Below are positions 38,773 through 53,967 of a stretch of DNA of 64,000 nucleotides, in pieces. Origin of the DNA: Escherichia phage vB_EcoM-Ro157lw; the sequence record MH051335.1. One strand, written 5' to 3'. The notes under the pieces are model-generated. The model had not been told where the DNA came from, searched no databases, and saw only the letters and a list, made by a program, of their open reading frames with translations. The position numbers and the translations under genes are program-made. Numbering within the stretch: position 1 is the stretch's first letter; every line of letters starts with the position of its first letter.

Positions 38773-39747
38773 TTAAAAATACTCCATATCGGTGATATCA
38801 CGGAAGCACTTATACAAGGCAGAGCGCGGCACGTCAACTATGCCAAAGTTAAAGAATTTATATGTCAGATACTTGTTTCGATAATTCTCGCGATTCTCCC
38901 AAAGCATTTTTCTCTCTGCCATAGGCATTGAACCAGCGGAGACGCGGAAGGGAATCATTTCACCTTTCTCATCAACATATTTTGGATTGACAACCACAAA
39001 TGATCCAAGGTATCCTTTTGCAACTAAGCCTTCAGCCTCTTTCGAACGCTTAGTGCGACCCAGCTCATCAATGAATGCTTCGTTGTTGTTCTCCATCATC
39101 TCAACGAAGTCTATGATCAGTCCTTCTTCATCGGTCCACGGCTTGTCCTTCCACACATCACGTGACTTTGGCGTCGCGCGGCCATGCTTGTATTTGCCCG
39201 TCCAAGACTTGCCATACAAGCCTTCATAGCCAAGCTGGTCTGCTTCGATTTGCATCGCCGCGTACTGTTCCATATTTTCGATGTTTCGATATTCGAGAGC
39301 GCGAAGGAATGGGCGTCGACCATGGTTGATGAGGTGCTGATTGACTTCAGCAACTCTAGCGCGATAGTTTGCATAACGTTTTTCAAAAGGCAAATCAGGG
39401 TCGCTGAAGTCATCAAACACCCACCATGTAAAGTTAGTGATTGCATCAGTGTTCATGCATGCAGTATAGGCCTGTTGCATGACGTTCTTGTCGTTCGGAT
39501 TGCCGTCAATTAGCTCTCCATCAAGGCCGTGAATCAATTCACCCAAAAAGAGGAACTCTTTCTTGATTTGAATGTTGCGCAACGCCATGCCGGACGTGCC
39601 CATTGGCAAATTGTCATATGCCATCGCGCGTATGCCATCGACCTTGAATGACAGTCCGCAAGGCAGCGGCACATCTTCGCCGCGCTCGATGATTTGTTTA
39701 CGCTGGCACCCTTTCATTGGTTTTAATGCTTTGATTTCTCCTGCCAT
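38773..39747 (-). CDS. ATP-dependent DNA ligase (small phage type)
   Basis: Motif I KVDGIR, motif III LDGELI, EGLYGK/EGLVAK motifs; ATG at 39747 (track extends to GTG 39750). Confidence 0.65.
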   Translation of the reverse strand: MAGEIKALKPMKGCQRKQIIERGEDVPLPCGLSFKVDGIRAMAYDNLPMGTSGMALRNIQIKKEFLFLGELIHGLDGELIDGNPNDKNVMQQAYTACMNTDAITNFTWWVFDDFSDPDLPFEKRYANYRARVAEVNQHLINHGRRPFLRALEYRNIENMEQYAAMQIEADQLGYEGLYGKSWTGKYKHGRATPKSRDVWKDKPWTDEEGLIIDFVEMMENNNEAFIDELGRTKRSKEAEGLVAKGYLGSFVVVNPKYVDEKGEMIPFRVSAGSMPMAERKMLWENRENYRNKYLTYKFFNFGIVDVPRSALYKCFRDITDMEYF

Positions 39748-40340
39748 CACTCAAACTCCTTATTCATCACTTGTTCCATTGCATAGGCGTAAGCCTGATC
39801 AGTCGATTTGATAAACGTTCCGTTGTACATCACTCCTTTACGGTCCTTGATGTCTTCATAGGCGGCTTGAGCGCAATCAGACAGTCGAAGTCCATAATCA
39901 TGCGCTACGCCGGAAAGATAATCGACTGCGGCCATGATGGTGACATCAATATCCATACTCTGATTTTTAGCAATGGCGTCACCAAGCCGTCCGAGAGTCT
40001 TTGCCAAGCGAAGGATAAACGAGTGAGGGTGGGCACCTTTGTCAGCGCAACCGCCGCCGTTGATGTCTTCGATTTTTGCACCATTTTGCGCGGCAAGAAT
40101 AGTTAACACAACAAGGCAATCGCCGATGTCATCCTTGATTGCGGCTTGTAAATCACAGATGGCCTGCTCTGTATATCCGATTTCAGGGTCAAAGAACACA
40201 AGGTCATGTAATTGATCAATGTGGTCGGTCAACTCCCCAAACTCGCTAATAAGCTTCGGGTATTGGTCCTTAAGGTCGCAGCCTTGGATGATGTTACGGT
40301 CAGAAGCCCACTGGCGAATGTTTGCATAAATCTGGTTCAT
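39747..40340 (-). CDS. MazG-like nucleotide pyrophosphohydrolase (tentative)
   Basis: Acidic helical motifs ISEFGELTD and DDIGDCLVVLTILA; AAAGGA SD. Confidence 0.4.
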   Translation of the reverse strand: MNQIYANIRQWASDRNIIQGCDLKDQYPKLISEFGELTDHIDQLHDLVFFDPEIGYTEQAICDLQAAIKDDIGDCLVVLTILAAQNGAKIEDINGGGCADKGAHPHSFILRLAKTLGRLGDAIAKNQSMDIDVTIMAAVDYLSGVAHDYGLRLSDCAQAAYEDIKDRKGVMYNGTFIKSTDQAYAYAMEQVMNKEFE

Positions 40341-40855
40341 TTATTTTCCTTTGATGCATTGAATTGATCGATTTTAATTTTAGCCTGATTATAAGTATCA
40401 ATCAAGCTATTAACCTTCTCTTTTAATCGGTTTGTTTCTGCGGCGAACTGAACAAGAAAACTGACATCTTCTTCTGATAGTCCACAGTTTCCTTCTGGGA
40501 TAGAGAGGCGTCCAGTGGTCGCAGAGTCGGGCATACTCCTGAGTAATTCACGGGAGCAGCTGAGTTGCTCGCGCAGCTTGATATTCCCAGACTTGTAACG
40601 AGCAATAGTGTCATCAGCAACCAGTTGCGCTTCCTGGCGACCCTTCTCATATGCCGATGCCGATTCAACCTGTAAAGATGCAATTTGCTCTTCGAGTGCA
40701 TTTATCTTGTCCTTACGCTCATTGAGCGATGTCAGATATTGATTATCCTTGGCCAGTGATGCGTTGGTTTGCTGAAGGTCTTCAACGTATGATCCAGCGG
40801 CGAACGCGCCAACAAGGGCCAGAATCTTCAGAAGCGGCACAATTCTTTCTATCAT
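40337..40855 (-). CDS. i-spanin (Rz-like)
   Basis: N-terminal TM then long coiled coil; contains an embedded lipoprotein ORF in another frame. Confidence 0.5.
   Translation of the reverse strand: MIERIVPLLKILALVGAFAAGSYVEDLQQTNASLAKDNQYLTSLNERKDKINALEEQIASLQVESASAYEKGRQEAQLVADDTIARYKSGNIKLREQLSCSRELLRSMPDSATTGRLSIPEGNCGLSEEDVSFLVQFAAETNRLKEKVNSLIDTYNQAKIKIDQFNASKENK
40423..40650 (-). CDS. o-spanin (Rz1-like lipoprotein) embedded in the i-spanin gene
   Basis: Alternate-frame ORF: MRRVARKRNWLLMTLLLVTSLGISS then Cys (lipobox-like ISSC); mature part has Pro and a second Cys. Confidence 0.45.
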   Translation of the reverse strand: MRRVARKRNWLLMTLLLVTSLGISSCASNSAAPVNYSGVCPTLRPLDASLSQKETVDYQKKMSVFLFSSPQKQTD

Positions 40856-40912: not shown

Positions 40913-41773
40913 TTAAAACTCTTCTGCGTCGGTCGGAGTTTCATTAACAGGGCCAGCGGCACCGCTTGCTTCTTCCTGCTTGCTGCGGTCAATGTTAACG
41001 TTGCCGCCAACTACATCGTTGTGGAATGCTTTGGCGACTTCATACAGACCTTTGTCCTGCACCAGACCTTCCAGCTCAAACTTCAGAACTGACCAGGTGT
41101 TGCCATCTTTAGACTGAGACGCAGTACCCATGCGAACGATGTTCATGAAGGTCGGCGGAGTTTTCAGGCCCTGCGGAGTCTGAACTTTCTTCTGCTGCAG
41201 AGCGGTCATCAGCATGCGAGACGGCTTGATCATGGAAGAAGTCAGAGACAGCATTGCGCTACCAAATTCACCAGTTTCTTCGTTCAACAGGATCACAAAG
41301 TGGTTACGTGTATCTGCGTAGTAAGGTGATTTCTTCTCGTGCACCTTGCCGTTTTCGTCTGGCACAAACACCTTACCGTTGATTTCAACAGCGCGGCCTG
41401 CTGCGACTTCTGCATCAACGTGCTCTTTGGTGAATTCACCTTTAAAGCCTTTATCGTCGGACTCGCGACCGCCCCAAAGGATGAAGGTGCGTTTGAATGC
41501 GCAAGGGATGATCTGCACACCTTTCTTGCCGTCATACAATTCACCAGTAACGGTGTTGTACAACATACCAGCTTTTGCGCCAGGAACGTGTTTTGGATCA
41601 TCTTCGTCGACCATCGGAGACATCTTTTGCAGTACGACGATAAAAGGAATGGCATAAGCGTCGGCATCGGCACCTTCAAAGCCAGCGCCAAAATCGGTCA
41701 TGTCGACAAAATCAGCCATAGCGGACATCTGGGTGTTTTTCACTGCAACTTCGGTAGTTTCTTTCTTAGACAT
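40913..41773 (-). CDS. hypothetical protein with acidic C-terminal tail ending in Phe (SSB-like feature)
   Basis: C-terminus ETPTDAEEF. Confidence 0.4.
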   Translation of the reverse strand: MSKKETTEVAVKNTQMSAMADFVDMTDFGAGFEGADADAYAIPFIVVLQKMSPMVDEDDPKHVPGAKAGMLYNTVTGELYDGKKGVQIIPCAFKRTFILWGGRESDDKGFKGEFTKEHVDAEVAAGRAVEINGKVFVPDENGKVHEKKSPYYADTRNHFVILLNEETGEFGSAMLSLTSSMIKPSRMLMTALQQKKVQTPQGLKTPPTFMNIVRMGTASQSKDGNTWSVLKFELEGLVQDKGLYEVAKAFHNDVVGGNVNIDRSKQEEASGAAGPVNETPTDAEEF

Positions 41774-41832
41774 TTGATGTTTTCCTATAGTATCAAGTTT
41801 CGTGGCAACCTGATTTCAAGATAAAGGTTAAA

Positions 41833-42390
41833 TTACTTTTTGCTTTTAGGCAAGGTTATTTTAGCTTCTTTATACTCAAAAACGCTAATATCTTCACTAA
41901 CTGGATTACCCGCTTCCAGCTGTTCTTTTACAAATGACTTCAGTGTAGCAGAGTGAACGCCTTGTTTCAACGTGGCTTCAACACCATCTTCACGCAGCGC
42001 GGCAACAATCTCTTGCGCTTGCTCGATTTCTTCGCGACCGAACTCAGCCGTGACGCTGGACTTGATCAAGCCGCCGTAACCGTTGTTGACAAGCCAATCG
42101 AATACCTTCAATTCATTTTCTTTCTTGATTGAAGCATTGACTTTTGACTCGACCTTGATTTTGGTCTTGTCTTCAAGCTTGATTTCGGACACGCCAAGCT
42201 CATCCATGACGCCAGGAAGCAGAACAGTTTTGATTTCACTGATGCGCTGCTTTTGCATATCAGCTTCATCTTCAAGCTCTGTCAAAGCTTCTTGGCGCTC
42301 TGCCAATTCCGATACTAAGCGCGCAAGGCGCTCTTGGATGCTCTCAGGAGCGACCTGCGGCAAATCATCTTCCCAATTAATATTGCTCAT
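41833..42390 (-). CDS. hypothetical coiled-coil protein
   Basis: ORF track. Confidence 0.55.
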   Translation of the reverse strand: MSNINWEDDLPQVAPESIQERLARLVSELAERQEALTELEDEADMQKQRISEIKTVLLPGVMDELGVSEIKLEDKTKIKVESKVNASIKKENELKVFDWLVNNGYGGLIKSSVTAEFGREEIEQAQEIVAALREDGVEATLKQGVHSATLKSFVKEQLEAGNPVSEDISVFEYKEAKITLPKSKK

Positions 42391-42650
42391 ATTTTACCTT
42401 CTTGCATTAGCCCTTCAACACGGGTCATTTGATAACGTTCAGGTTTCCAAGCCGCCAAAGCCTTCTCAGCGCCTTTTAAGGTTTTATATGCCTTGATGCC
42501 AGGCATAATAACGGTATTCACCCCAGCACCGTTGCCATAATCAAACTCTTTTACAACGCGGAACATGCCGTCAATTTCTTTGACCAAAAGACGTTTGAAC
42601 GCGATTGCGCCAGTAGCTTCATTTTTGTAACGTTCAAGGATGCGTACCAT
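42387..42650 (-). CDS. hypothetical protein
   Basis: ORF track; AGAGGA SD. Confidence 0.55.
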   Translation of the reverse strand: MVRILERYKNEATGAIAFKRLLVKEIDGMFRVVKEFDYGNGAGVNTVIMPGIKAYKTLKGAEKALAAWKPERYQMTRVEGLMQEGKI

Positions 42651-42724: not shown

Positions 42725-44248
42725 TTAATTCATCTTTTTGCCGTCGAGGATGTGATCAGCAAGCATTGACTTCATACTGAGTGAACGCTGAATTTCTTCG
42801 TCGATGGTATCAACACCAATAAAATCAACATACAACACGCTTGATTTGGTGCCGATGCGGTGATTTCGGTCTTCGGATTGCTTGCGCAACTCGTTATCGT
42901 AGTTGCAAGAATAATAAATTGCCAAGTCGGCGGCGGTAAGCGTGATGCCGATGCCTGCCGCTGCAGCGTGGCAAACCAAGACTTGCGTTCCGCCGTTCTC
43001 GACTGTATTCTTCTGGAAGTCATCAATTAAGAACTCTCGCTGCTCTTTGGACGTTTCACCATTGTATACACCAGTGACCACGCCTTCAGACTCAAGCCAG
43101 TCCTTAATCTGGTTCATCTCTTCCTTAAAGATGGCCCAAACGATGAATTTGCGCTCTGGGTCGTCTTCCAGCACACCTTCCACATAATCCTTAAAGGCCG
43201 TGAATCGTGGGTTGTCTTCCATGTAGACCATCTCATCATACACCTTAACAAAGCCGGATGTAACCTGCTTCATCTTAGTGCGAGACGCGATCATCTCAAA
43301 CTTGACGTTTTCTTCTTCGCCCTTGTATTCCATCAAATAGTTGTACTCATTCTTGAGTTCATCGTAAACATCACGTTGTTTAGGCGACAACTCGAAGTCG
43401 ATAAACTTGTACACCTTCTCTGGAAGGTCCGGCAAGTATTCCGCTTTTGTCGCACGAAAATAGTGCGGTTCCATCAGCCGGATAAGCTTGTCAAGGTTTT
43501 TGTACATCGGTCGACCAAACTGGTCTTTGCGCGGCACTTGCGGAATCCCATAACCATTGCCGCCGATTTTCTTGAGGATGGCTTGCATCTCTGGGTCGTG
43601 CGCTTCAAGTAGCACTGTAAATTCAGAGTTAAAGGCACGGAATGATTTGGTGCCGAGCAATCCTGCTTCAAGGAAGTGGTATTGCATGTAAATATCCGCA
43701 GGCGAGCGCGGCAACGGCGTGCCAGAAAGGATTCGACGGGCCTTTGCCAGCCGTCCCAATTCCACAACCTTGATGGAGCGTTTGGCTGTGTTATTCTTGA
43801 TGCGCGTTGATTCGTCGATGATCATCAGGCAGCGGTACTTCTTCAAGACCGACTCGATGTGTTGATAACCGACTGGTGTGTTGACAGTATCGATGTTGAA
43901 TGAGAAGATGCGCGCAGGCACTTCGCCTTCGGGGTAGTGATCAGCAAACATCTTCTCCCAAAGCGCCTTGCCCTTTTTAGTTTTCATCTTATCGTTGCCG
44001 CACCAGTAGTGCCCAATCCACTTGATGGAAAGGTGCTCTGGCGCTTCACGACGAATCCAGTTTGAGTGGACCCCGTTTGGAGCGATGACGACCATGGCGT
44101 CGAAAGCGCCAGCGGTGAAGTGCTTTTCAAACTCTGCCAAAGCGGTCCAAGTTTTACCAAGACCCTGTTCCATGAAATAGGCAAAGTATTTTCTGCGGCC
44201 TGCTTTATCAAGCGCCAGAAGCTGGTGGCGCATCCCTTGTGTTTTCAT
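42725..44248 (-). CDS. SNF2-family helicase
   Basis: DExx box MIIDESTRIKN, motif III ILSGTPL, motif VI QSEDRNHRIG. Confidence 0.8.
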   Translation of the reverse strand: MKTQGMRHQLLALDKAGRRKYFAYFMEQGLGKTWTALAEFEKHFTAGAFDAMVVIAPNGVHSNWIRREAPEHLSIKWIGHYWCGNDKMKTKKGKALWEKMFADHYPEGEVPARIFSFNIDTVNTPVGYQHIESVLKKYRCLMIIDESTRIKNNTAKRSIKVVELGRLAKARRILSGTPLPRSPADIYMQYHFLEAGLLGTKSFRAFNSEFTVLLEAHDPEMQAILKKIGGNGYGIPQVPRKDQFGRPMYKNLDKLIRLMEPHYFRATKAEYLPDLPEKVYKFIDFELSPKQRDVYDELKNEYNYLMEYKGEEENVKFEMIASRTKMKQVTSGFVKVYDEMVYMEDNPRFTAFKDYVEGVLEDDPERKFIVWAIFKEEMNQIKDWLESEGVVTGVYNGETSKEQREFLIDDFQKNTVENGGTQVLVCHAAAAGIGITLTAADLAIYYSCNYDNELRKQSEDRNHRIGTKSSVLYVDFIGVDTIDEEIQRSLSMKSMLADHILDGKKMN

Positions 44249-44667
44249 GACAATTCCTCTAAATACTTGATGATGTGATGGATGGACCCGCTCGCGGCGA
44301 CCATATCCAAAATCTCACCCTTAGTATATTCTTTTAATCGCAATGAAGGGTGAACTAAATAATAAGCCTTTTCAGAATCTACCTTCAGCAGCACAAATGA
44401 CGAGAACTTCCAATCATTCCAAGAAGTCAAAAAGCTTTGTTGGCCTTTCTCAAATGCACTTTTAAAAGGAAGAGTGGTGGCCCTTGCAGGCCACGATTCA
44501 AAAAACTTCATTTCAAGCCAAAAGCCGCGCCCTTTCCGGTTGGTGCCGATTACATCCGGCACACCATCACCCGTCATGGATTCGATTCTTTGAAGCTTCA
44601 GTACTGATTCTGAATGCTTCTTCAAAGGAACGAAAATGTATTTTTGTTCACGGTTATTTGTTGCCAT
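44245..44667 (-). CDS. VRR-NUC domain nuclease
   Basis: PD-(D/E)xK-type motif GVPDVIG...WLEMK; paired with SNF2 helicase. Confidence 0.6.
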   Translation of the reverse strand: MATNNREQKYIFVPLKKHSESVLKLQRIESMTGDGVPDVIGTNRKGRGFWLEMKFFESWPARATTLPFKSAFEKGQQSFLTSWNDWKFSSFVLLKVDSEKAYYLVHPSLRLKEYTKGEILDMVAASGSIHHIIKYLEELS

Positions 44668-53121: not shown

Positions 53122-53967
53122 TTATTCCGCTTGATCACCGTCTTCGGCATCTTCGTTGGATTCAACATCGACAAACTCGATGTGGCCCATCTCTTCCAGC
53201 TTGCTCAGGTAGGAGCGAACGGAAGCGCCAAACAGTTGATCTTTAACTTTTTCGCCCAGCTCATCGATAGACTGCGCCACGCCAACTTCGCCTTCTTTGA
53301 TCGCCGCCAGAACGCGTCCACGGGTGGAATGCTCTTGCGGCTGGCTCAGGCCATTGCCAGTGTAGATGAAGTGGGTTGCTTTTGCGCGACGCTGACCGTT
53401 TGCCTTTTTAGCAGCCTTACGTTCTGCGATGGCTTTGCGACGTTCTTCAGCTTCTTTCTTACGCTGTTCTTTCTGCTTTTCTGCAGCTTCTTTAGCCGCA
53501 ATCTTAGCAGCTTCACGCTCTGCCTTGCGTTTCGCTTTAGCTTCTTCTTTGGCCTTCTCTTTTTCGGCCTTCGCTGCAGCACGGGCTTGATCACGCTCTG
53601 CTTTCTTAGCAGCAGCTTGTTCAGCTTTCAGGCGCTTGGCTTCTTCTTTGGCCTTTGCCTTTTCGATTTCTTTTGCTGCTTTAGCGGCTTCACGCTCTGC
53701 TTTCTTAGCAGCTGCTTTTTCTGCACGCTCTTTGGCTTTCTTCGCTGCTTCTTCAGCACGTTTCTGTGCTTTCTCATCAGCGGCCTGCTTGCGTTTCAGT
53801 GCAGCTTCTTCACGCTTGGCTTGTTTTTCCTGCTCACGCTTCTGGCGTTTTTCTTCGGCTTCTTTCTTTTTAGCCAGGCGTTTTTCTTCAGCCACGCGAC
53901 GACGTTCTGCTGCAGCTGCTTGTTTTTCTTCTTTAGATAATACTTTGATTGCTTCGGCCATATTCAC
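53122..53967 (-). CDS. Lys/Glu/Ala-rich charged-helix protein with C-terminal globular domain
   Basis: ~190 aa of KAE-rich low-complexity sequence; AAGGA SD; same strand as all neighbours. Confidence 0.6.
   Translation of the reverse strand: MNMAEAIKVLSKEEKQAAAAERRRVAEEKRLAKKKEAEEKRQKREQEKQAKREEAALKRKQAADEKAQKRAEEAAKKAKERAEKAAAKKAEREAAKAAKEIEKAKAKEEAKRLKAEQAAAKKAERDQARAAAKAEKEKAKEEAKAKRKAEREAAKIAAKEAAEKQKEQRKKEAEERRKAIAERKAAKKANGQRRAKATHFIYTGNGLSQPQEHSTRGRVLAAIKEGEVGVAQSIDELGEKVKDQLFGASVRSYLSKLEEMGHIEFVDVESNEDAEDGDQAE

What the first reader, a model, noticed from the sequence alone, without database searches (positions are those of the whole stretch)
40913..41773. Protein with an acidic C-terminal tail ending in Phe, a hallmark of phage single-strand DNA-binding proteins
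The last residues (ETPTDAEEF) resemble the acidic tails of T7 gp2.5-type and bacterial SSBs, which recruit polymerase and helicase. The rest of the protein does not obviously match a known SSB fold by eye.
Basis: inference. Interest (0 to 1): 0.3.

Follow-up and report, generated by a model that had tools for sequence, protein, structure and literature searches.

The report
Likely unrecognised phage single-strand DNA-binding protein
This gene of an E. coli Wifcevirus phage belongs to a very large phage protein family of unknown function that looks like an abundant SSB-type DNA-replication protein with a conserved acidic tail ending in Phe, but it shows no detectable homology to any known SSB family.

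Summary
Window 40913-41773 (minus strand) encodes a 286-aa protein ending ETPTDAEEF. The tail is not chance: 108 of 143 relatives that are at most 50% identical end in Phe, against 1.5% of neighbouring ORFs, and the tail is preceded by acidic residues. Some relatives end in the bacterial SSB tip, DDDIPF. The protein belongs to Pfam PF23977 (Pam3_Gp34) and PHROG 2402, both of unknown function, with 4,756 clusters at 50% identity. It sits in a conserved cassette of nuclease, SNF2 helicase, DUF7307 and PF23977, next to primase, helicase and polymerase genes. This is the slot held by the gp2.5-type SSB in phage Enc34. It has the strongest codon optimisation of all 73 window ORFs, above the capsid gene, and ranks 2nd of 51 genes in a Pseudomonas Pbunavirus. 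No other SSB is recognisable in the genome. However, a pLDDT-90 model has no significant PDB match, only weak hits to RPA, phiC31 gp3 and SsbB. No sequence link to known SSB families was found, and two phage groups also carry a canonical SSB. Verdict: SSB or gp2.5-like function is likely (about 0.5), an OB fold is unproven, and family membership is not shown.

The parts
40913..41773 (-). CDS of the 286-aa PF23977 (Pam3_Gp34-like) protein, the candidate SSB-like protein
   Evidence: ORF listing and sequence; Pfam PF23977 at 289 bits against a cutoff of 27; PHROG 2402; highest Fop of 73 window ORFs
41651..41773 (-). Acidic N-terminal segment (residues 1-41). Residues 1-20 are low-confidence. A conserved D-x-x-D-F-G-x-G-F-E-G motif (G31 invariant, E33 at least 90% conserved) is predicted to pack on the core
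   Evidence: Alignments A1 and A2; pLDDT 59-62 for residues 1-20 and 87-91 for residues 21-40; pI 4.05
40994..41650 (-). Folded, mainly beta core (residues 42-260) with near-neutral pI. It holds the only two Trp residues (W100, W227), both at least 90% conserved, plus conserved D154-T155-R-x-H158 and S179-x3-K183-x-S185 motifs
   Evidence: AlphaFold2 model m53c9aebfcb45 with pLDDT 94-98 across the core; conservation; composition
40916..40993 (-). Disordered acidic C-terminal tail (residues 261-286): a variable Gly/Ala/Ser/Pro linker followed by the conserved tip D-A-E-E-F (40916-40930)
   Evidence: pLDDT 54 falling to 45; F286 invariant and A283 at least 90% conserved in A1; family statistics
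41783..41786 (-). Ribosome-binding site AGGA, 9 nt upstream of the ATG
   Evidence: Upstream sequence; annotated at the same place in phage Mansfield
40864..40895 (-). Intrinsic terminator (9-bp stem with 6 G-C pairs, then a T-run) 18 nt after the stop codon
   Evidence: Terminator scan; annotated in Mansfield
41833..42390 (-). DUF7307 (Pam3 gp33-like), 185 aa: N-terminal coiled coil plus an alpha/beta domain. It is the obligate upstream neighbour and probable partner
   Evidence: Pfam PF23984 E=3e-37; directly upstream on the same strand in 42 of 45 viral loci and in phages QH, pB23 and MW2; alignment A4
42387..42650 (-). 87-aa protein (PHROG 27467) between the helicase and DUF7307. It is highly codon-optimised (rank 5 of 73)
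42725..44248 (-). SNF2-type SF2 helicase, called UvsW-like in the Mansfield annotation. It is a constant member of the cassette
   Evidence: Pfam SNF2-rel_dom plus Helicase_C; present in 45 of 45 viral loci and in QH and MW2; Mansfield note
44245..44667 (-). 140-aa protein (PHROG 2165, with a weak match to a Holliday-junction-resolvase PHROG). It may be the nuclease component of the cassette
   Evidence: By analogy only: a PD-(D/E)XK nuclease occupies position -3 in 33 of 45 viral loci

Best explanation
The gene encodes an abundant, non-enzymatic ssDNA-coating protein of the phage replication and recombination machinery. It is a functional analogue of T7 gp2.5 or Enc34 ORF6, acting as an SSB and possibly also as an annealing protein. 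The proposed mechanism is inferred. The near-neutral beta-rich core would bind ssDNA, with the two conserved Trp residues (W100, W227) and conserved basic and Ser/Thr residues as candidate contacts. The disordered acidic tail ending in an invariant Phe would serve as a docking peptide for partner proteins: the co-inherited SNF2 helicase and DUF7307, and/or the polymerase. In relatives ending DDDIPF the partners could be the host proteins that bind the SSB tip. The tail probably also folds back on the DNA-binding surface to regulate binding, as reported for gp2.5. What is shown: the tail conservation, the tripartite architecture, the cassette, the codon optimisation, and the lack of another recognisable SSB. 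What is inferred: ssDNA binding, the partners of the tail, and the fold class.
For: (1) Tail: F286 is invariant in A1. 108 of 143 diverse members end in F, acidic residues dominate positions -4 to -7, 29 members end in PF, and some members end DDDIPF, DADDIPF or TDFDDDVGF, against a background of 1.5%. (2) Architecture: acidic, partly disordered N-terminus, confident core, disordered acidic C-tail, as described for phage and bacterial SSBs (PMC5686142, PMC11795197). (3) Context: the cassette is PD-(D/E)XK nuclease, SNF2 helicase, DUF7307 and PF23977, followed by AEP primase, UvrD-like helicase and PolA in 45 viral loci. The same core is found in Wifcevirus, Vibrio phage QH, Acinetobacter phage pB23 and Bordetella phage MW2. 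The crystallographically defined Enc34 SSB sits in a module with the same parts: DUF2800 exonuclease, SSB, PolA, a small nuclease and an SNF2 helicase. (4) Abundance: the highest Fop of 73 window ORFs (0.716, against a mean of 0.497 and SD of 0.071), above the capsid gene at 0.684. The Pbunavirus Ab27 ortholog ranks 2nd of 51 genes. A dedicated terminator follows the gene. (5) No SSB is annotated in the curated Wifcevirus genomes, and no window ORF resembles T7 gp2.5, Enc34 SSB, phiC31 gp3 or a bacterial-type SSB. (6) Weak fold signals: the PDB top list includes RPA (E=8e-3), phiC31 gp3 RDF/SSB (prob 0.63) and S. coelicolor SsbB. BFVD hits with prob 0.92-1.00 carry the names SSB, DNA-binding protein and RDF. 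The gp3-type RDF family binds ssDNA experimentally (PMC11795197). (7) The same reasoning was used to predict DUF669 as an SSB family (PMC4889955).
Against: No PDB match reaches E<=1e-3 with a pLDDT-90.7 model, all TM-scores are below 0.3, and T7 gp2.5, Enc34 SSB and T4 gp32 do not appear in the top 50. None of 143 members matches any SSB family in Pfam. Profile-profile comparisons were negative, although the positive control also failed, so those comparisons are uninformative. Phages QH and pB23 carry a separate canonical SSB ending DDDIPF or DDDLPF close to the family member, so the protein is not always the only SSB. The core is neutral rather than basic, and the whole protein is acidic (pI 5.1). 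The names attached to the BFVD hits are submitter annotations that I could not verify. Codon optimisation shows abundance, not DNA binding.
Confidence: 0.5

Rival explanations
1. It is a single-strand annealing or recombination-mediator protein that works beside an SSB (host or phage) rather than being the general SSB. Together with DUF7307 and the UvsW-like SNF2 helicase it would drive recombination-dependent replication, and the tail would couple it to those partners.
For: In phage QH the gene order is SNF2 helicase, DUF7307, PF23977, canonical SSB (ending PPMDFDDDIPF), PolA. Phage pB23 also has a canonical SSB within 5 kb. From general knowledge, an annealase sitting next to an SSB is the usual phage arrangement. 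A PD-(D/E)XK nuclease lies in the cassette in 33 of 45 loci, and exonuclease-annealase pairs are typical. No other recombinase is annotated in Wifcevirus. T7 gp2.5 itself both binds ssDNA and anneals it (annotation).
Against: No Rad52, RecT, Red-beta or Erf structure appears among the top PDB hits. Codon optimisation above the capsid gene fits a stoichiometric coating protein better than a mediator. Tails ending in the exact SSB tip (DDDIPF), in loci with no separate SSB within 7 kb, suggest that the protein itself plays the SSB role there.
Confidence: 0.22
2. It is an accessory or loader subunit of the SNF2 helicase/DUF7307 complex, or a polymerase processivity or scaffold factor. It would bind protein or duplex or branched DNA rather than coating ssDNA.
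For: It co-occurs strictly with the SNF2 helicase (45 of 45 loci) and with DUF7307 (42 of 45), irrespective of polymerase type (DnaE-type in Wifcevirus and Pbunavirus, PolA elsewhere). No known SSB fold was detected.
Against: Its codon optimisation is far above that of the helicase (rank 1 against rank 25), which argues against a 1:1 enzyme subunit. The tail type is characteristic of SSBs (PMC5686142).
Confidence: 0.12
3. It is a decoy or hub protein that does not bind DNA. Its SSB-tip-like tail would sequester host proteins that normally dock on host SSB, as part of host takeover or counter-defence.
For: A subset of relatives end in the exact bacterial SSB tip, DDDIPF or DADDIPF. The protein is abundant.
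Against: The tails in Wifcevirus and Pbunavirus (DAEEF, EAEGF) are not host-like, yet the terminal Phe is still conserved. A large conserved 220-residue core is not needed for a decoy peptide. The gene sits within replication genes, not among early host-takeover genes. There are no PADLOC matches.
Confidence: 0.06
4. It is a structural, scaffolding or lysis protein. Some GenBank records call it 'putative holin'.
For: Codon optimisation is comparable to that of virion proteins. The 'putative holin' label appears in phage phiLCL12. The adjacent downstream genes are spanins.
Against: There is no hydrophobic segment (maximum Kyte-Doolittle value 1.14 over 19 residues). The gene is conserved across myo-, sipho- and podoviruses together with replication genes, not with structural genes. 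It is separated from the spanin genes by a terminator.
Confidence: 0.02

Closest known systems
T7 gp2.5 / Enc34 ORF6 'T7-type' SSBs (Pfam PF21265, PF10991; PHROG 112)
   Same: They are phage-encoded and 200-290 aa long, with a mainly beta core followed by a disordered acidic C-terminal tail. T7 gp2.5 also ends in Phe. They are encoded among nuclease, SNF2 helicase and polymerase genes. The order of predicted secondary-structure elements, with a helix directly after the first long hairpin, is compatible with the T7-type hallmark described in PMC5686142.
   Different: There is no Pfam, PHROG or profile match, and Foldseek does not return 1JE5 or 5ODL in the top 50. The target is larger, with extra hairpins and a C-terminal helix. 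Its tail is much less acidic. It always travels with DUF7307, which T7-type SSBs lack.
Bacterial SSB (E. coli type) and phage copies such as Vibrio phage QH gp29
   Same: Both have an acidic disordered tail ending in a hydrophobic tip. Some family members carry the identical tip, DDDIPF.
   Different: There is no sequence similarity. The core is twice as large. The window protein's own tip is DAEEF. The family coexists with a canonical SSB in phages QH and pB23.
phiC31 gp3 / TG1 gp25 RDF-SSB family (Pfam PF18897)
   Same: It gives the best non-trivial PDB hit (9teh_I, prob 0.44-0.63) and a BFVD hit named RDF of Microbacterium phage Armstrong. It is of similar size, is a replication-module protein, and binds ssDNA experimentally (PMC11795197).
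   Different: TM-scores are only 0.23-0.29. hhalign gives a probability of 2%. The gp3 family has conserved Cys/His residues for zinc, whereas the target has a single Cys. The gp3 interaction peptide is N-terminal.
DUF669 / phage N4 SSB (predicted divergent OB-fold SSBs)
   Same: The status and the logic are the same: an orphan phage family with acidic C-tails, genomes lacking a known SSB, and only weak OB-fold matches (PMC4889955).
   Different: It is a different family. No relationship was tested here.
T4 gp32 with UvsW / UvsW.1 / UvsY
   Same: Both have a tripartite SSB architecture: an N-terminal segment, a core and an acidic C-terminal interaction tail. Both are associated with a UvsW-like helicase, a small adjacent protein and a mediator-sized helical protein (T4 gene order from my own knowledge).
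   Different: There is no zinc site, no gp32 hit in the fold search, and no sequence similarity. The analogy between DUF7307 and UvsY is speculative.

Membership tests
Pfam PF23977 (Pam3_Gp34-like) / PHROG 2402 | Full-length match to the family HMM above the curated threshold | tested here: met
   289.1 bits against a cutoff of 27, residues 15-259 covering profile positions 3-234 of 235; PHROG 2402 E=3.6e-105
T7-type SSB (gp2.5 / Enc34; PF21265, PF10991, PHROG 112) | Sequence or profile similarity to the family | tested here: inconclusive
   There was no Pfam or PHROG hit for the target or for any of 143 relatives. hhalign gave probabilities of 0.1-0.2%. However, the positive control (T7-like against Enc34-like, known structural homologs) also scored only 0.5%, so the test lacks power
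T7-type SSB (gp2.5 / Enc34; PF21265, PF10991, PHROG 112) | OB-type five-stranded barrel with a long capping helix directly after beta2 (PMC5686142) | tested here: inconclusive
   Foldseek with a pLDDT-90.7 model found no hit at E<=1e-3, and 1JE5, 5ODL and 4JG2 were not in the top 50. There were only weak hits to other OB ssDNA binders. The secondary-structure order is compatible.
T7-type SSB (gp2.5 / Enc34; PF21265, PF10991, PHROG 112) | Disordered acidic C-terminal tail used for partner binding | tested here: met
   The tail at residues 261-286 has pI 4.05, with pLDDT below 55 from about residue 271. The terminal Phe is invariant or conserved. Partner binding itself was not tested
T7-type SSB (gp2.5 / Enc34; PF21265, PF10991, PHROG 112) | Preferential binding to ssDNA through aromatic stacking and a basic cleft | not testable with these tools
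   Only indirect evidence is available: the protein's two Trp residues (W100, W227) are both at least 90% conserved
Bacterial-type SSB (E. coli SSB family) | Roughly 110-residue OB domain recognisable by sequence | tested here: not met
Bacterial-type SSB (E. coli SSB family) | C-terminal tip D-D-D-I-P-F | tested here: not met
   The window protein ends DAEEF. The motif is present in only some relatives: 17 of 143 end in [IVLM]PF
gp3-like RDF/SSB (PF18897) | HMM or profile match, and the conserved Cys/His zinc site | tested here: not met
   There was no Pfam hit, and hhalign gave a probability of 2%. The gp3 family has invariant H115, H116, C117, C135 and C137, while the target has one Cys. The only positive signal is a weak fold hit to 9teh_I at prob 0.63
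Rad52-like single-strand annealing proteins (RecT / Red-beta / Erf / Sak) | Rad52-type beta-beta-beta-alpha DNA-binding fold, or a family HMM match | tested here: not met
   No such structure is in the top 50 PDB hits for either model, and there is no Pfam or PHROG match
Whirly / PUR-like ssDNA binders (considered because of three apparent hairpin-hairpin-helix units) | Repeated beta-beta-beta-beta-alpha modules | tested here: not met
   No internal repeat was found by profile-profile comparison (prob <=0.5%). WHY2 appears only at noise level (prob 0.06-0.09)

The most novel reading that the evidence does not exclude
PF23977 is a previously unrecognised, very widespread class of phage SSB/annealing protein. 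It would be built on a fold with no counterpart in the PDB (not a recognisable OB fold), would work as an obligate pair with DUF7307 and an SNF2 helicase, and would have convergently acquired the bacterial SSB terminal docking peptide. In some lineages the tip is the exact DDDIPF, which would let the phage plug into the host SSB interactome. This would make it the missing SSB of the Pbunavirus therapy phages.
Probability: 0.2. Interest if true: 0.75.

Novelty: new variant of a known kind. Interest (0 to 1): 0.5.

Why it matters
The family is very large: 4,756 clusters at 50% identity and about 500 sequenced phages. [quoted passage not shown] It is annotated 'hypothetical', or wrongly as 'holin', almost everywhere. 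If it is the SSB or annealase of these phages, three things follow. It fills the gap in their replication machinery, since no SSB was known in them. It defines a conserved three-gene module (SNF2 helicase, DUF7307, PF23977) as a testable recombination and replication unit. It adds a further independent case of the SSB-type acidic tail with a terminal aromatic docking residue. Phage SSBs are also reported triggers of several bacterial defence systems (paper titles listed), so recognising a new SSB class is relevant to predicting phage sensitivity.

Tried and rejected
(1) Searches of the PDB with the single sequence and with profiles A1 and A2 found nothing.

(2) hhalign of A1 and A2 against phiC31 gp3, T7 gp2.5 and Enc34 ORF6, as single sequences and as alignments, gave no signal. 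The T7-versus-Enc34 positive control also failed, so these negatives carry no weight.

(3) I considered a Whirly/PUR-like triplicated hairpin-hairpin-helix architecture and rejected it. There is no internal repeat and only noise-level Whirly hits.

(4) A Pfam scan of all 143 diverse members, looking for recurrent weak secondary families, found none.

(5) Searching for relatives in bacterial genomes failed with A2 because it has no conserved stretch, and found none with A1. The query P0169 found nothing in viral contigs.

It is invalid and should be ignored.

(7) Literature searches for PF23977, DUF7307 and PHROG 2402 returned no papers. A Pbunavirus plus SNF2 search was uninformative. The supplement of PMC4889955 is not held. 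The Pam3 genomics paper assigns no function to gp34.

(8) The most codon-biased gene in Ab27 (ORF85) was checked as an alternative SSB. Its window ortholog is a Lys/Ala/Glu low-complexity protein, not an SSB type.

(9) A profile search of the PDB with DUF7307 gave only coiled-coil noise.

(10) The cassette being a defence system was ruled out. PADLOC returned only generic SNF2 hits for the helicase.

(11) No convincing sigma-70 promoter was found directly upstream of the gene.

Full report
**1. The observation**

Window 40913-41773 on the minus strand is an ATG-initiated ORF of 286 aa ending ...GPVNETPTDAEEF. It has an AGGA ribosome-binding site 9 nt upstream. A strong intrinsic terminator (9-bp stem, 6 G-C pairs, T-run) starts 18 nt after the stop, and both features are annotated at the same places in phage Mansfield. 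The window is a Wifcevirus, an E. coli myophage 96-97% identical to RCIP0363, WFH, Mansfield and ECML-117 and distantly related to the Pseudomonas PB1-like Pbunaviruses (PMC11990801). The ORF is a real gene: Pfam PF23977 'Pam3_Gp34' (E=4e-86, 289 bits against a cutoff of 27) and PHROG 2402 (E=4e-105), both without a known function. tblastn finds it in 509 phage records, annotated 'hypothetical' nearly everywhere and once 'putative holin'.

**2. The tail is a conserved feature, not chance**

- In 51 relatives at 50-79% identity, the terminal Phe is invariant and A283 is nearly invariant, although the 20 residues before them cannot be aligned.
- An exhaustive profile search found 4,756 family representatives at E<=1e-3 among clusters at 50% identity.
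- Of 143 such diverse members, 108 end in Phe and 130 end in F/Y/M/L/I/W. Asp and Glu dominate positions -4 to -7, and 29 members end in 'PF'.
- All 45 metagenomic viral loci examined end in Phe.
- Only 1.5% of 342 neighbouring ORFs end in Phe.
- A subset end in ...DDDIPF...DADDIPF or ...TDFDDDVGF. This is the tip of bacterial SSB, as seen in the canonical SSB of Vibrio phage QH...PPMDFDDDIPF.
- The Wifcevirus and Pbunavirus subfamily uses x-A-E-[GE]-F instead.

**3. Architecture and fold**

A first AlphaFold2 model built on 51 sequences reached pLDDT 78. A second model built on 143 diverse sequences reached pLDDT 90.7 and pTM 0.85 with identical topology.

- Residues 1-20 are low-confidence.
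- A conserved D-F-G-x-G-F-E-G motif packs on the core.
- The core (residues 42-260) is mainly beta: three long hairpins, three short ones and three helices.
- The tail is disordered from about residue 271.
- The two termini are acidic (pI 4.05 each) and the core is neutral (pI 7.2).
- There is no hydrophobic segment, so the 'holin' label is wrong.
- The only two Trp residues, W100 and W227, are both at least 90% conserved across the family.

Foldseek against the PDB found nothing at E<=1e-3 with either model, and all TM-scores were below 0.3. T7 gp2.5, Enc34 SSB, T4 gp32, Rad52 and RecT are absent from the top 50. Against BFVD there are 33 hits at E<=1e-3. The strongest are uncharacterised homologs. 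The distant ones include proteins named SSB, DNA-binding protein, RDF (Microbacterium phage Armstrong), and an iridovirus DUF5895 protein.

The gp3-type RDFs are experimentally shown ssDNA-binding proteins (PMC11795197) and are common in Microbacterium phages. T7-like SSBs are reported in Megavirales (PMC4889955). These links are suggestive only, because the names are submitter annotations and I could not superpose coordinates.

**4. Sequence-level membership tests**

No member of the family hits any SSB family in Pfam. hhalign against the gp3, T7 gp2.5 and Enc34 profiles is negative. My positive control, T7-like against Enc34-like, also failed (prob 0.5%). These two are accepted structural homologs with about 15% identity (PMC5686142). 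The negatives are therefore uninformative. An internal-repeat (Whirly/PUR-like) idea was tested and dropped.

**5. Genomic context**

Across unrelated phages the gene is immediately preceded by DUF7307 (Pam3 gp33-like: a coiled coil plus an alpha/beta domain) and accompanied by an SNF2-type helicase, often with a Pam3 gp32-like protein. This holds for the window and for Vibrio podophage QH, Acinetobacter phage pB23 and Bordetella phage MW2.

The census of 45 IMG/VR loci gave these neighbours:

| Position relative to PF23977 | Gene | Loci (of 45) |
|---|---|---|
| -3 | PD-(D/E)XK nuclease | 33 |
| -2 | SNF2 helicase | 45 |
| -1 | DUF7307 | 42 |
| +1 | AEP primase | 27 |
| +2 | UvrD-like helicase | 40 |
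| +3 or +4 | PolA | 11 |

The Enc34 module, whose SSB was solved by crystallography, has the same parts list: DUF2800 exonuclease, SSB, PolA, a small nuclease and an SNF2 helicase. PF23977, together with DUF7307, therefore occupies the SSB slot of a common phage replication and recombination module.

Curated Wifcevirus genomes annotate Pol III alpha and epsilon, two helicases, a RepB-type primase and a ligase, but no SSB or recombinase. No window ORF resembles any reference SSB.

**6. Abundance**

The gene has the highest fraction of E. coli-optimal codons of all 73 window ORFs: 0.716 against a mean of 0.497 and SD of 0.071. That is above the major capsid gene (0.684) and the sheath gene (0.619). 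The optimal-codon set was taken from my own knowledge.

In Pbunavirus Ab27, with a different host, I used a reference-free index built on the phage's own capsid, sheath and tube genes. The ortholog ranks 2nd of 51 genes (0.756 against a mean of 0.507 and SD of 0.103). This marks a stoichiometric, very abundant protein, as expected for a DNA-coating protein and not for an enzyme subunit. The helicase ranks 25th.

**7. Counter-evidence**

Phages QH and pB23 each carry a separate small canonical SSB, with tips DDDIPF and DDDLPF, within a few kb of the family member. The family member's own tail there still ends hydrophobically (...DFPDEM and ...GGEF). The family therefore has a role that a canonical SSB does not make redundant, which favours an annealing or mediator component, as in gp2.5. 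Only 2 of 83 loci show such an SSB within 7 kb. The members with an exact DDDIPF tip are in loci without one.

**8. Conclusion**

The functional reading is the best-supported explanation at about 0.5: an abundant SSB or gp2.5-like ssDNA-binding, and possibly annealing, protein whose terminal-Phe acidic tail docks partners. The main rival, at about 0.2, is an annealase or mediator that works beside an SSB. Membership in any known SSB family, and an OB fold, are not demonstrated. The fold may be a strongly elaborated OB variant or something new. No paper mentioning the family was found.

Noticed in passing
window 53122-53967 (-): A 281-aa protein whose first ~200 residues are almost entirely Lys/Ala/Glu low-complexity sequence (AEEKRLAKKKEAEEKRQKREQEK...). 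It has a small C-terminal globular part and an acidic end, and it lies next to the RecD/Dda-like helicase. Its Pbunavirus ortholog (Ab27 ORF85) has no Pfam hit and the highest capsid-relative codon index in that genome, which may be a composition artefact. It may be a histone-H1-like DNA-coating protein.
   Followed up: partly
window 42387-42650 (-): An 87-aa protein (PHROG 27467, no Pfam hit) lies between the UvsW-like SNF2 helicase and DUF7307. It is unusually codon-optimised (Fop 0.63, rank 5 of 73). Its position recalls T4 UvsW.1 next to UvsW (from my own knowledge). In other phages a Pam3 gp32-like protein (PF23992) occupies this position.
   Followed up: partly
window 41833-42390 (-) and alignment A4: DUF7307 (Pam3 gp33-like) is an obligate upstream neighbour of the PF23977 gene. 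It has an N-terminal coiled coil, a conserved I-P-E-x-M motif, an alpha/beta domain with an invariant W-L, and a basic C-terminal end. Its function is unknown and it has no relative in the PDB by sequence.
   Followed up: partly
window 44245-44667 (-): A 140-aa ORF between the Pol III alpha gene and the SNF2 helicase matches PHROG 2165, which is labelled 'DNA helicase' although the protein is far too small for one. It also matches a Holliday-junction-resolvase PHROG weakly. It is probably a small nuclease, and the PHROG label is doubtful.
   Followed up: no
GenBank records found: Two annotation errors are propagating. The PF23977 homolog in Pseudomonas phage phiLCL12 is named 'putative holin', and it represents a cluster of 115 member sequences. 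The gp3-type RDF/SSB of Arthrobacter phage SWEP2 is also named 'holin'.
   Followed up: partly
L007 (Vibrio phage QH) 11450-12402 and context: The QH-type phages that carry the cassette also encode PurZ, annotated '2-aminooxy adenylosuccinate synthetase'. That is the marker of 2-aminoadenine (Z) genomes. The cassette therefore also operates in phages with modified DNA.
   Followed up: no
window 38773-40855 (-): Directly downstream of the target's terminator lie an i-spanin gene with an embedded o-spanin gene (40337-40855 and 40423-40701), a MazG-like pyrophosphatase and an ATP-dependent DNA ligase. Lysis genes are thus interleaved with replication genes on the same strand.
   Followed up: no
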